Shown: positions 44,901 through 47,900 of the stretch, piece after piece
How positions within the stretch are numbered: the stretch's first letter is position 1
Layout: each line of letters begins with the position of its first letter
Origin: Escherichia coli O127:H6 str. E2348/69
GTDB lineage: Bacteria; Pseudomonadota; Gammaproteobacteria; Enterobacterales; Enterobacteriaceae
NCBI RefSeq assembly: GCF_000026545.1
Contig: NC_011601.1
Length of the DNA: 64,000 nt
Reading direction: 5' to 3' (one strand)
Position numbers: made by a program

Positions 44901-47900
44901 ACTTTGCAAAAGCTAACTTGCCTACTCAGCTGGAAACTCTCGGGGAAATTGTGACTGAGATTTTGAAAGATGGACGTAATCTGAGTCGAAAGTCGCTTTG
45001 TGCCAAACTTCTTTGCCGACTGGAACAAGCGACAGGGGAAGAGGAACAGAAACATTATAATGCACTAATTGGGTTGCTTTTTGAATAATGCAACAGCCTG
45101 ATTATTTAACAGGTTAGCTATGAAGTCGTTATGAAGACATCTGATAATGAAAGTATAAAATATGAAATTACTGGCCAGGCGGTGCTCCAGATACTGCGCA
45201 TGAAGATAAATTTTTCGTTGCAGACTCTTATTAAGCAATTACTCGTAATGAAATCGGCTGAGGAAAATACTTTCCGACGAGATTTAATTGACAGTATAAT
45301 TCGTGATTTTAGCAACAGTGATACAGGAGGGCCAAACCGAAGAACAGCGATAGCTGACAATAAAAGTATGTTCACTGGTAAGAAAATAAACAGAATACAT
45401 TAAAATTTCATAAGTAAGATGAGAGGTTACCATGCTTGAAGATACTACTATTCATAATGCAATATCTGATAAAGCGTTATCAAGTTACTTTCGTAGTTCA
45501 GGTAATTTGTTAGAAGAAGAGTCAGCTGTGTTAGGGCAGGCTGTGACCAATTTAATGCTTTCAGGTGATAATGTTAATAATAAAAATATTATCTTAAGTC
45601 TGATACACTCCCTGGAAACAACAAGTGATATTCTCAAAGCTGATGTGATTAGAAAAACACTGGAAATCGTGTTGCGATACACAGCTGATGATATGTAACT
45701 TTTAATTATAAAGTATAAGTTTATAGAAAACTCATTCATCTTATTTTTGTCTGTCGCTTTAGACTATACACAGCATAATTTTATTGGGTCACTATTCCTG
45801 CGAGGCTGACATGAATAATTCAATCCCAGAGAGATTTATTTTTCAATGTGCTTTGTTTAAAAATCTCGAGAGGGAGGTGTTCATGACACATGGATATGTT
45901 GATAGTCATATTATTGCTCAGGCTTTACGCTTGCGTTTAAAAGATGAGACCAGTGTTATTCTTTCTGATCTCTATCTGCAAATCTTGCAGTACATTGAAA
46001 TGCATAAGACTACACTAACGGATATCATTATTAATGACAGGGAATCCGTGCTCTCTTAAAACTTGAGTAAGGTTTTTGAATAAACATCAGCTGTATCACT
46101 ATGCTGATGCAAAGTGAGCATTTCAGGCATTATGCTTTCTTAATATATCCGCAATATCAGAGGGCAAACAGGAATGGAGAACGCTCGTTTTCCATTCTTG
46201 ACGCCTGATATCCCGCCTAATTTGTTTAATTCTGCCTACATTGTGCTAAATAATTAATAGGTTAGATGAAGTTGGAGAAAATTTTATCTTCGGCGTGGAT
46301 ATTTGTGATGCTCTCTACCATGCTCTCTGTAGACCCCAGCGCGAGCGAATGAACGTCTCTTTAGCTTCTACAGACTTATCGATAAAGGCTTTGGGATTTT
46401 GATATTTATTCTGTTAATCGCCTGCGCCGCTGCCTTCCTGCTTTATAGGTATTTCAATAAAAGCGCAACGCCTGAAGAGATCCTGCGACGGGCTATAAAT
46501 AATGGGGAGATCGTCCCTTTTTATCAACCTGTGGTAAATGGTCGGGAAGGGACATTGCGGGGAGTTGAGGTGTTAGCCCGCTGGAAACAACCTCACGGTG
46601 GATATATATCACCCGCGGCATTTATTCCACTTGCTGAAAAATGCGTATTAATCGTTCCGTTTACGCAAAGCCTGATGAATCAGGTTGCCAGCCAGATGAA
46701 CGCTATCGCGAGTAAACTGCCGGAAGGTTTTCATATTGGGATTAATTTTAGCGCCTCGCATATTATTTCGCCGACGTTTGTCGACGAGAGCTTAAATTAC
46801 CGTGACAGTTTTACCCGCCGCGATTTAAACCTTGTTCTGGAAGCCAGCGAGCGTGAGCCATTAAATGTTGATGAAACTCTGGTTCAGCGGTTGAACATTC
46901 TGCATGAAAATGGTTTTGTCATCGCGCTGGATGATTTCGGTACTGGTTACTCAGGGCTTTCTTATCTGCATGACTTGCATATTGATTATATCAAAATTGA
47001 TCACAGTTTCGTTGGCCGCGTCAACGCAGACCCAGCATCAACCCGAATTCTGGATTGTGTATTGGATCTGGCGCGTAAACTTTCGATCAGTATCGTCGCT
47101 GAAGGTGTCGAAACGAAAGAACAATTTGACTATCTGAACCAAAATAATATCACATTTCAGCAGGGTTATTATTTCTATAAACCTGTTACATACATCGACC
47201 TGGTCAAAATTATCCTTTCTAAACCGAAGGTGAGGTTGTGGTTGAGTGAAAATTGATCAGCAAGGCCATGGTGCGGTGTAATTATAGACAGCTAATTAGC
47301 TCGTTGCCTCTTGTTACTATTGTTCATTCTTTTGTTTGCTATAATTGTGTGAAAGTTTTGACTGGATTGCCATTAGTAGCATGAACAATAGTAATAATCT
47401 GGATTATTTCACTCTCTATATCATCTTTTCCATTGCATTTATGTTGATCACTCTCCTGGTCATCCTTATTGCAAAACCCAGCACCGGGCTGGGAGAAGTG
47501 CTTGTGACGATAAATTTGCTTAATGCCCTTGTTTGGCTGGCGATCAATCTGGTTAATCGATTAAGGGAAAGACTCGTCAGCCACAGGGATCAGCACTAAT
47601 CTTTCAGTTTCTCACTGCCAGTATGCGGCTGAATGGGTTGCTGGCAGTGAACCCCTGGATCATTGAAGGAAAGGAATTATTGCACAAATAGTCGTCAATC
47701 CTGGTGTTATCACGGTTGTTTTTATATATCAGTGAAATAATTTCCATGGCAACTGTTGATAATTTTGATGTCGAAGAGTTATTTGTTAAACAAAATAGTT
47801 ACCCCAAAGTGATCAATGTCATGAAAATAAGCTAAAAATGATAATGCTGGCTTATTTATCATTTAAATATTGTCGCTGTTTATCTATTTAAATTTCTTGT

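What the first reader, a model, noticed from the sequence alone, without database searches (positions are those of the whole stretch)
46060..47256. pdeG (ycgG) appears to have lost its 5' sensor domain
From memory, K-12 PdeG is ~507 aa with an N-terminal periplasmic sensor domain. Here only a 285-codon TM + EAL frame is present, beginning at a TTG just after an in-frame stop, and only ~340 bp of non-coding DNA separate it from ymgC. This may alter c-di-GMP control in the BluR-regulated biofilm cluster.
Basis: partly seen in the sequence, partly recalled or inferred. Interest (0 to 1): 0.4.

Follow-up and report, generated by a model that had tools for sequence, protein, structure and literature searches.

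The report
Known sensor-less pdeG (ycgG2) allele

Summary
The window is E. coli E2348/69. A clean 668-bp deletion (junction at window 46356/46357) removed the last 38 bp upstream of pdeG and codons 1-210. That takes out the ribosome-binding site, the ATG, TM1 and the whole periplasmic CSS sensor domain. What remains is a TTG-initiated 285-codon frame (46399-47256) encoding 15 of the 19 TM2 residues plus a complete EAL domain.

The deletion is not specific to this strain. The identical junction is in 919 of 5,426 complete E. coli genomes, including Nissle 1917, 83972, ST131 and O2:K1:H7 APEC. It is the published 'ycgG2'/c1610 allele of phylogroup B2 (Zlatkov & Uhlin 2019; Spurbeck 2012; Cimdins-Ahne 2023; Römling 2023). 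In ExPEC relatives that allele is expressed and acts as a sensor-less phosphodiesterase. RefSeq annotates it as a pseudogene.

Three small points go beyond the papers read:
- The TTG start was not created after the deletion. It is already present in roughly 570 full-length alleles.
- The E2348/69 (EPEC1) copy carries eight further amino-acid changes and a C-terminal frameshift. Its dN/dS is about 1, against 0.09 in flanking genes, so it is probably decaying. All 13 catalytic residues are intact.
- ST73/ST95-type alleles carry G460D at a 99%-conserved glycine.

Novelty: already known. Interest: low.

The parts
46060..46356 (+). Retained ymgC-pdeG intergenic DNA. This is the native pdeG upstream region minus its last 38 bp. 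It contains a strong hairpin (about 46162-46206) and a conserved 28-codon small ORF (46266-46352).
   Evidence: It aligns end to end with the intergenic region of full-length alleles. No + strand sigma-70-like site was found in it by the simple scan.
46356..46357 (+). Deletion junction. 668 bp are missing relative to full-length pdeG, corresponding to K-12 NC_000913.3 about 1217290-1217957. The missing DNA is 38 bp of 5' leader (RBS) plus codons 1-210 (ATG, TM1, CSS domain with both cysteines).
   Evidence: The junction is clean against the closest full-length allele (MN06021), with 1 nt (C) of microhomology. The identical junction is in 919 of 5,426 genomes.
46357..46398 (+). Former pdeG codons 211-224 (LFSFYRLIDKGFGI). 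They are still in frame and open, but lie upstream of the first usable start codon and so now act as 5' leader. A weak SD-like AAGG sits at 46385-46388, 10 nt before the TTG.
   Evidence: The frame is open back to TAG 46330-46332.
46399..47256 (+). Remnant ORF ('ycgG2'-type): TTG start at former Leu225, 285 codons plus a TGA stop.
   Evidence: The exact protein is in public databases as 'EAL domain protein [E. coli DEC2B]' on 29 contigs. RefSeq marks 46357-47256 as a pseudogene 'missing N-terminus'.
46399..46446 (+). Partial second transmembrane segment (MIFILLIACAAAFLLY). It keeps 15 of the 19 hydrophobic residues of K-12 TM2 (residues 221-239). D240Y in this strain removes the flanking acidic residue.
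   Evidence: Kyte-Doolittle mean of 3.06 over 15 residues. Membrane insertion was not tested.
46477..47184 (+). Complete EAL domain (aa 27-262 of the remnant). All 13 canonical catalytic, metal-binding and substrate-binding residues are present. It carries the lineage-specific substitutions G307V, L312F, R322S, C355S, V373A, T374S and S384T (K-12 numbering).
   Evidence: Pfam PF00563, 212 bits. The closest solved structure is PA3825-EAL, E=4e-63.
47230..47256 (+). C-terminal tail changed by a 1-bp deletion at about 47232. KVK(V/I)VVE* becomes KVRLWLSEN*, which makes the product 285 aa instead of 283.
   Evidence: The change is unique to the E2348/69 allele among the nine alleles compared.

Best explanation
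This is the phylogroup-B2 deletion allele of pdeG (ycgG), published as ycgG2 (c1610 in CFT073).

Shown here:
- A single ancestral 668-bp deletion removed the RBS, the start codon, TM1 and the periplasmic CSS redox-sensor domain.
- The remaining frame can only start at a TTG (former Leu225). It encodes most of TM2 fused to a catalytically complete EAL domain.

From the literature on sister alleles:
- The TTG-initiated 32-kDa protein is made in vivo in strain IHE3034 and has c-di-GMP phosphodiesterase activity, weaker than full-length YcgG.
- Deleting c1610 in CFT073 changes fimbriation and adherence.

Inferred:
- Without the CSS domain the enzyme cannot be held in check by DsbA/DsbB disulfide formation or processed by DegP/DegQ. 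It would therefore act as an unregulated, possibly membrane-tethered phosphodiesterase that resembles the proteolytically released TM2+EAL fragment of PdeC.
- In the E2348/69 (EPEC1) lineage specifically, the remnant has since evolved as if under no purifying selection. Its activity is probably reduced or on the way to being lost, although no catalytic residue has been hit.
For: Identity of the window and its annotation:
- The window is 100% identical to E2348/69, and RefSeq marks the gene as 'missing N-terminus'.

The deletion:
- It is mapped.
- The identical junction is in 919 of 5,426 genomes, including Nissle, 83972, ST131 and O2:K1:H7 APEC.
- 3,990 genomes keep the undeleted right junction.

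Domain content:
- EAL only here, against CSS plus EAL in the full-length protein.
- All 13 catalytic/binding residues are intact.
- The hydrophobic N-terminus is shown.

Literature:
- PMC6385356: TTG start, 283 aa, in vitro translation, western detection in IHE3034, phosphodiesterase activity in V. cholerae.
- PMC3484386: c1610 mutant phenotype, complemented by a heterologous phosphodiesterase.
- PMC10459773 and PMC10333796: truncation in B2, ST131, UPEC and commensals.
- PMC5897775: TM2+EAL of PdeC is membrane-bound, dimeric and highly active, while the EAL domain alone is inactive.

Relaxed constraint in this lineage:
- Remnant dN/dS, E2348 against Nissle, is 0.99 (10 N: 3 S). For 23 flanking genes it is 0.09 (23.5 N: 75.5 S). 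Fisher p = 3e-4.
- E2348-specific changes are 8 N: 1 S plus a 1-bp deletion.
- Five of the eight replacements introduce residues seen in 2% or fewer of 144 diverse homologues.
Against: - No expression or activity data exist for the E2348/69 allele itself.
- The simple promoter scan finds no + strand sigma-70-like site between ymgC and the TTG, and the SD is weak.
- RefSeq calls the gene a pseudogene.
- The counts behind dN/dS are small (13 differences).
- The only indel lies in the last six codons, where it is least harmful, and the 285-codon frame is still open. Both facts are also compatible with continued selection for a product.
- TM2 is shortened to 15 hydrophobic residues, and the published papers describe the protein as cytoplasmic/stand-alone, so membrane anchoring is unproven.
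Confidence: 0.9

Rival explanations
1. In E2348/69 the remnant is a dead pseudogene. It is not translated to any useful level and is simply eroding, so the strain is effectively a pdeG null.
For: - The native RBS and ATG are deleted.
- There is only a TTG with a weak AAGG 10 nt upstream, and no promoter-like site by the scan.
- RefSeq tags it as a pseudogene.
- dN/dS is about 1, with substitutions at conserved positions and a frameshifted tail.
- Another B2 strain (Ec15103) has lost a further 218 bp including the TTG and TM2.
- pdeG is disrupted independently by IS elements in other strains.
- K-12 ycgG expression is reported as almost undetectable (PMC10459773).
Against: - The sister allele is detectably expressed from the chromosome in IHE3034 and gives phenotypes in CFT073.
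- All 13 catalytic residues are intact.
- The ORF is open in all six B2 alleles examined that share the junction unmodified.
- The exact E2348/69 protein is conserved on 29 contigs of the EPEC1 lineage.
Confidence: 0.4
2. The remnant is a fully functional, positively selected 'constitutive' phosphodiesterase in E2348/69. The eight replacements would then be adaptive tuning rather than decay.
For: - The branch ratio of 8 N: 1 S corresponds to a nominal dN/dS above 1.
- D240Y moves towards the family consensus: Y is found in 35 of 118 homologues and D in none.
- The frame and the catalytic residues are preserved.
- TM2+EAL of PdeC is the most active form of that enzyme.
Against: - 8:1 is not distinguishable from neutrality. 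The expected N fraction is 0.77, and P(8 or more of 9) is about 0.35 by my calculation.
- G307V, V373A, C355S and L312F introduce residues essentially never seen in homologues, which is more typical of damage.
- The ExPEC allele already shows reduced activity.
Confidence: 0.1
3. The apparent truncation is an assembly or sequencing artefact, or a recent laboratory deletion in this isolate.
For: None found.
Against: The identical junction is in 919 independent complete genomes from many hosts and countries, and in the resequenced E2348/69 record.
Confidence: 0.01

Closest known systems
ycgG2 allele of E. coli IHE3034 / c1610 of CFT073 (Zlatkov & Uhlin 2019, PMC6385356; Spurbeck et al. 2012, PMC3484386; YcgG of B-11870 in Cimdins-Ahne et al. 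2023, PMC10459773)
   Same: Same locus, same deletion junction, same TTG start at former codon 225 and same EAL-only Pfam architecture.
   Different: - The E2348/69 copy is 285 aa rather than 283, because of a 1-bp deletion five codons from the end.
- It carries D240Y, G307V, L312F, R322S, C355S, V373A, T374S and S384T.
- It lacks the G460D found in the Nissle/CFT073/APEC-type protein.
- No functional data exist for this variant.
Full-length PdeG (YcgG) of E. coli K-12, a CSS-domain c-di-GMP phosphodiesterase (TM1-CSS-TM2-EAL; Herbst et al. 2018, PMC5897775)
   Same: It is the orthologous locus between ymgC and ymgF. Residues 211-501 align without gaps, and the EAL catalytic residues are identical.
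   Different: TM1, the periplasmic CSS domain with both cysteines, the native start and the RBS are absent. The defining redox and proteolytic control of the class therefore cannot operate.
Proteolytic or cloned TM2+EAL fragment of PdeC (Herbst et al. 2018)
   Same: The architecture is a second transmembrane segment followed by the EAL domain. In PdeC this form is membrane-inserted, dimerises through TM2 and is highly active. Römling 2023 already drew this parallel for truncated YcgG.
   Different: - Here the form is fixed genetically, not produced by DegP/DegQ.
- TM2 is shortened by four residues.
- Activity of the ExPEC allele was reported as lower, not higher, than full-length YcgG.
Other independent pdeG truncations (YcgG of strain Tob1, PMC10459773; IS1- and IS2-disrupted alleles)
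   Same: Loss or disruption of the CSS-encoding 5' half with the EAL part retained.
   Different: Different breakpoints and mechanisms. Tob1 has a divergent 22-aa N-terminus and an ATG start. B-JRPT-4119 is bounded by IS1, and ETEC4079 carries an IS2 insertion.

Membership tests
EAL-domain c-di-GMP phosphodiesterase (Pfam PF00563) | Full-length match to the EAL domain model | tested here: met
   212.4 bits, E=8e-63, profile positions 2-236 of 236. PA3825-EAL structure match at E=4e-63.
EAL-domain c-di-GMP phosphodiesterase (Pfam PF00563) | Catalytic, metal-binding and substrate-binding residues of active EAL enzymes (Q, E..R of the EVL motif, E, N, ExxE, DD, K, E..E, Q) | tested here: met
   Q267, E281, R285, E304, N340, E372, E375, D402, D403, K423, E459, E462 and Q479 are all present. 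Each is conserved in at least 97% of 144 homologues. The Thr of the 'TE' catalysis motif (Spurbeck Table 1) is Ser here (T374S).
EAL-domain c-di-GMP phosphodiesterase (Pfam PF00563) | Measured hydrolysis of c-di-GMP | not testable with these tools
   Shown only for the sister allele of IHE3034, indirectly in V. cholerae (PMC6385356).
CSS-domain phosphodiesterases (TM1-CSS-TM2-EAL) | Periplasmic CSS domain with two conserved cysteines | tested here: not met
   There is no PF12792 match in the remnant, while the full-length protein matches at aa 31-217. Codons 1-210 are deleted.
CSS-domain phosphodiesterases (TM1-CSS-TM2-EAL) | First transmembrane segment (TM1) | tested here: not met
   K-12 residues about 4-22 are hydrophobic and lie inside the deleted segment.
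CSS-domain phosphodiesterases (TM1-CSS-TM2-EAL) | Second transmembrane segment (TM2) preceding the EAL domain | tested here: inconclusive
   15 of 19 hydrophobic residues are retained after the TTG. No topology predictor or experiment was available.
ycgG2 / c1610 deletion allele of phylogroup B2 | Same deletion junction as other B2 strains | tested here: met
   A 201-nt junction probe matches in one piece in 919 genomes. The junction is base-identical in Nissle, APEC E18055, strain 4/4, ST131 4224 and AH20I049.
ycgG2 / c1610 deletion allele of phylogroup B2 | TTG start at former Leu225 giving a 283-aa product | tested here: inconclusive
   The TTG is present at 46399. The product is 285 aa because of a C-terminal 1-bp deletion. 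It falls in the same 90% protein cluster as the 283-aa CFT073 protein.
Pseudogene (non-functional remnant) | Loss of native translation start and 5' coding region | tested here: met
   RefSeq note: 'incomplete; missing N-terminus'.
Pseudogene (non-functional remnant) | Neutral substitution pattern (dN/dS about 1) | tested here: met
   0.99 against Nissle, compared with 0.09 in 23 flanking genes, p=3e-4. The counts are small. In other B2 lineages the signal is weaker (Nissle against APEC: 1 N: 2 S).
Pseudogene (non-functional remnant) | No transcript or protein | not testable with these tools
   The protein was detected in a different B2 strain (IHE3034). No data were found for E2348/69.

The most novel reading that the evidence does not exclude
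The B2 'ycgG2' remnant may not be a stably maintained new enzyme. It may instead be slowly degenerating in lineage-specific ways:
- The EPEC1 lineage (E2348/69, DEC2B) has accumulated eight replacements, five of them at conserved positions, plus a frameshifted tail.
- ST73/ST95-type alleles carry G460D next to the catalytic Glu.
- One strain has deleted the start and TM2.
- The TTG 'rare start codon' described as a post-deletion adaptive mutation is in fact an older synonymous polymorphism, present in roughly 570 full-length alleles.

If this is right, the published view of ycgG2 as a pathoadaptive gain would need tempering, and E2348/69 would be functionally close to pdeG-null.
Probability: 0.45. 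Interest if true: 0.25.

Novelty: already known. Interest (0 to 1): 0.12.

Why it matters
PdeG is one of five CSS-domain phosphodiesterases that tune c-di-GMP, and through it biofilm matrix, fimbriae and motility. Loss of its sensor domain across a whole phylogroup containing the major extraintestinal pathogens, Nissle 1917 and the prototype EPEC strain is a real rewiring of that network. It has already been described and partly characterised.

For this window, the practical points are these:
- E2348/69 should not be assumed to have K-12-like PdeG regulation.
- Its copy differs from the ExPEC allele that was tested experimentally.
- The RefSeq 'pseudogene' label and the literature's 'active allozyme' label are both defensible until the E2348/69 protein is assayed.

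Tried and rejected
- **Filler bases at the junction.** Alignment to a K-12-like allele (LR9-2) suggested a 671-bp deletion with a 3-bp 'CGT' filler. Comparison with a closer full-length allele (MN06021) showed those bases are ancestral and the deletion is a clean 668 bp.
- **Local mutation hot spot.** I asked whether the many E2348/69-specific changes reflect locally elevated mutation. SNP density against Nissle (about 1.2% over 22.6 kb) is not unusual in the remnant. Only the N:S ratio is unusual.
- **Gene conversion from a paralogous EAL gene.** This is unlikely as a source of the changes, because the derived residues are almost never seen in 144 homologues.
- **Rfam scan of 44500-48500.** No hit at E of 1 or below.
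- **Promoter scan.** No + strand site between ymgC and the TTG. This is uninformative rather than negative.
- **Povolotsky & Hengge 2016 (PMC4686209).** This is the likely first description, but it is not held in the library, so its content is cited only through later papers.
- **E2348/69-specific literature on ycgG.** Nothing found.
- **Database look-up of the upstream small ORF.** No entry.

Full report
**What is at the coordinates.**
The window is Escherichia coli E2348/69. Bases 45700-47700 are 100% identical to NZ_CP059840.2. The local gene order is bluR, bluF, ycgZ, ymgA, ariR, ymgC, a remnant annotated 'cyclic diguanylate phosphodiesterase ... incomplete; missing N-terminus', ymgF, and fragments of the ycgH autotransporter pseudogene.

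The ORF list shows a TTG-initiated frame of 285 codons at 46399-47256. Pfam finds only an EAL domain in it (aa 27-262, 212 bits). A K-12-type PdeG of 507 aa has a CSS-motif domain (aa 31-217) followed by EAL. MG1655 pdeG is indeed 1524 bp, 507 aa.

**Mapping the lesion.**
Against a K-12-like allele the homology breaks at window 46353/46357. Against the closest full-length allele I found (strain MN06021), the picture is a clean 668-bp deletion between window 46356 and 46357, with a single shared C at the breakpoints.

In K-12 coordinates the missing DNA is about 1217290-1217957. That is the last 38 bp before the ATG, including the ribosome-binding region, plus codons 1-210. This takes out TM1 (hydrophobic residues about 4-22) and the entire periplasmic CSS domain with both cysteines.

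The retained coding sequence starts exactly at codon 211. The frame is open back to a TAG at 46330-46332, but it contains no ATG, GTG or TTG until the TTG at 46399, which is former Leu225.

The TTG product begins MIFILLIACAAAFLLY. That keeps 15 of the 19 hydrophobic residues of TM2.

**Distribution.**
- A 201-nt probe across the junction matches in one piece in 919 of 5,426 complete E. coli genomes. These include Nissle 1917, 83972, O2:K1:H7 APEC and ST131.
- 3,990 genomes have the undeleted right-hand junction.
- The junction is base-for-base the same in the six deletion alleles I aligned. This points to one old event inherited by a large clade, which the literature identifies as phylogroup B2. 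That E2348/69 is a B2 strain is established knowledge.
- The exact 285-aa protein occurs on 29 contigs, including EPEC DEC2B. The 283-aa version is CFT073 AAN80078.1 and occurs on at least 1,000 contigs.

**It is already known.**
[quoted passage not shown] They translated the 32-kDa, 283-aa product in vitro and detected it by western blot in strain IHE3034. They showed phosphodiesterase activity in a V. cholerae colony assay, weaker than full-length YcgG.
- They credit Povolotsky & Hengge 2016 with the first description. That paper is not in the library.
- Spurbeck et al. 2012 (PMC3484386) deleted the same gene (c1610) in CFT073. They saw more FimA and more adherence, and the phenotype was complemented by a heterologous phosphodiesterase.
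- Cimdins-Ahne et al. 2023 (PMC10459773) compared truncated variants and note the truncation in all ST131.
- Römling's 2023 review (PMC10333796) summarises it as a frequently truncated gene. It also draws the parallel to proteolytic release of TM2+EAL.

**How it most likely works.**
In CSS-domain phosphodiesterases, DsbA/DsbB-made disulfides in the periplasmic domain restrain activity. The reduced form is active and is clipped by DegP/DegQ to a membrane-bound TM2+EAL fragment. [quoted passage not shown] 2018, PMC5897775).

The B2 deletion hard-wires a form lacking the sensor, so periplasmic redox input is impossible; the sequence shows this directly. I infer that any product is an unregulated phosphodiesterase. 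Its activity would depend on whether the shortened TM2 still inserts and dimerises.

Transcription must come from the retained upstream region or from read-through out of ymgC. The simple scan finds no obvious sigma-70 site there. A very stable hairpin sits between ymgC and the remnant.

**What is particular to E2348/69.**
Nine alleles were compared: six deletion alleles and three full-length ones. Relative to the others, the E2348/69 remnant carries D240Y, G307V, L312F, R322S, C355S, V373A, T374S and S384T. It also has one synonymous change and a 1-bp deletion near 47232 that rewrites the last residues (KVK(V/I)VVE* becomes KVRLWLSEN*), giving 285 aa instead of 283.

Nei-Gojobori estimates:

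| Comparison | dN/dS | N : S |
|---|---|---|
| Remnant, E2348/69 vs Nissle | 0.99 | 10 : 3 |
| 23 flanking genes, same two strains | 0.09 | 23.5 : 75.5 |
| Same region, two full-length alleles | 0.03 | 2 : 19 |

The remnant differs from the flanking genes at Fisher p = 3e-4. Overall SNP density in the remnant is not unusual.

I aligned 144 diverse homologues from a search of 1.84 billion representative proteins.
- All 13 canonical catalytic and binding residues are intact in E2348/69.
- Five of the eight replacements put in residues seen in 2% or fewer of homologues at conserved positions:
  - G307V: G in 108 of 143, V in 0.
  - V373A: L, I or V in 142 of 144, A in 0.
  - T374S: T in 132 of 144.
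  - C355S: C in 112 of 143.
  - L312F: F in 1 of 143.

This is the signature of relaxed constraint rather than of a well-maintained enzyme. The numbers are small, and the single indel lies where it does least harm.

**Two further observations bearing on the published story.**
- *The TTG codon.* The TTG at codon 225 is present in full-length pdeG of MN06021 and strain 7/2. An exact 78-mer spanning undeleted sequence plus the TTG is found in roughly 570 genomes. That figure is 1,488 records at 99% identity or better, minus the roughly 920 deletion alleles that match only its right part. The 'rare start codon' is therefore an older synonymous TTA/TTG polymorphism, not a mutation that followed the deletion as stated in PMC6385356.
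- *G460D.* The Nissle/CFT073/APEC-type protein carries G460D in the AEGVE motif. Gly is present there in 142 of 144 homologues and Asp in none. This may explain the reduced activity reported for the ExPEC allele. That link is my inference.

**Verdict.**
The finding is a known, clade-wide allele with an existing literature, so novelty is 'already known' and interest is low. Whether E2348/69's own copy is a weak constitutive phosphodiesterase or an eroding pseudogene is unresolved. I put about 0.4 on the dead-pseudogene reading, 0.1 on a fully functional, adaptively tuned enzyme, and the remainder on a weakened but still active enzyme.

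Noticed in passing
window 46266-46352 (+): A conserved small ORF lies in the ymgC-pdeG intergenic region: 28 aa, hydrophobic, MKLEKILSSAWIFVMLSTMLSVDPSASE*. K-12 has a 26-aa version from an ATG at NC_000913.3 1217205. It is present with few changes in every allele examined, is not annotated in RefSeq and is not in the protein collection. Its stop codon ends 4 nt before the deletion breakpoint. It could be a leader peptide or small membrane protein, or just conserved non-coding DNA.
   Followed up: partly
window 46162-46206 (+): A very stable hairpin lies between ymgC and the pdeG remnant: -24.1 kcal/mol, z=-5.5 here; -34.6 kcal/mol, z=-10 with a 20-bp stem in K-12. The stem sequence differs between B2 and K-12 alleles but pairing is kept. 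It has no U-tract and no Rfam match. It may be an operon boundary or a regulatory element.
   Followed up: partly
L003/L005/L010 (Nissle, APEC E18055, AH20I049), remnant codon 460; window 47105: ST73/ST95-type ycgG2 alleles carry G460D in the AEGVE motif, next to the catalytic Glu459. Gly is found there in 142 of 144 homologues and Asp in none. E2348/69 and ST131 keep the Gly.
   Followed up: partly
L011 (strain Ec15103), equivalent to window 46239-46456: One B2 genome has a second deletion of 218 bp. It removes the small ORF, the TTG start and TM2 of the remnant.
   Followed up: partly
L014 (B-JRPT-4119) and L015 (ETEC4079): pdeG has been disrupted independently elsewhere. In B-JRPT-4119 an IS1-bounded rearrangement truncates it near codon 213. 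In ETEC4079 an IS2 insertion splits the CSS domain from the EAL part.
   Followed up: no
window 46444-46877 vs 46878-47231: All nine E2348/69-specific substitutions in the remnant fall in its first 521 nt and none in the following 355 nt. The post-hoc probability is about 0.01. This is unexplained; a recombination patch or chance are both possible.
   Followed up: no
window 47998-49514 (+): The ycgH autotransporter is broken into several short ORFs and a frameshifted beta-barrel fragment, annotated as hypothetical proteins and a pseudogene in RefSeq. Strain 7/2 has an apparently intact ycgH.
   Followed up: no
L006/L007 (Nissle 1917), upstream of ycgX: In Nissle a lambdoid prophage carrying iss, followed by the sitABCD genes, lies next to an icd fragment just upstream of this cluster. 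Synteny with the window therefore begins only at about window 41341.
   Followed up: no
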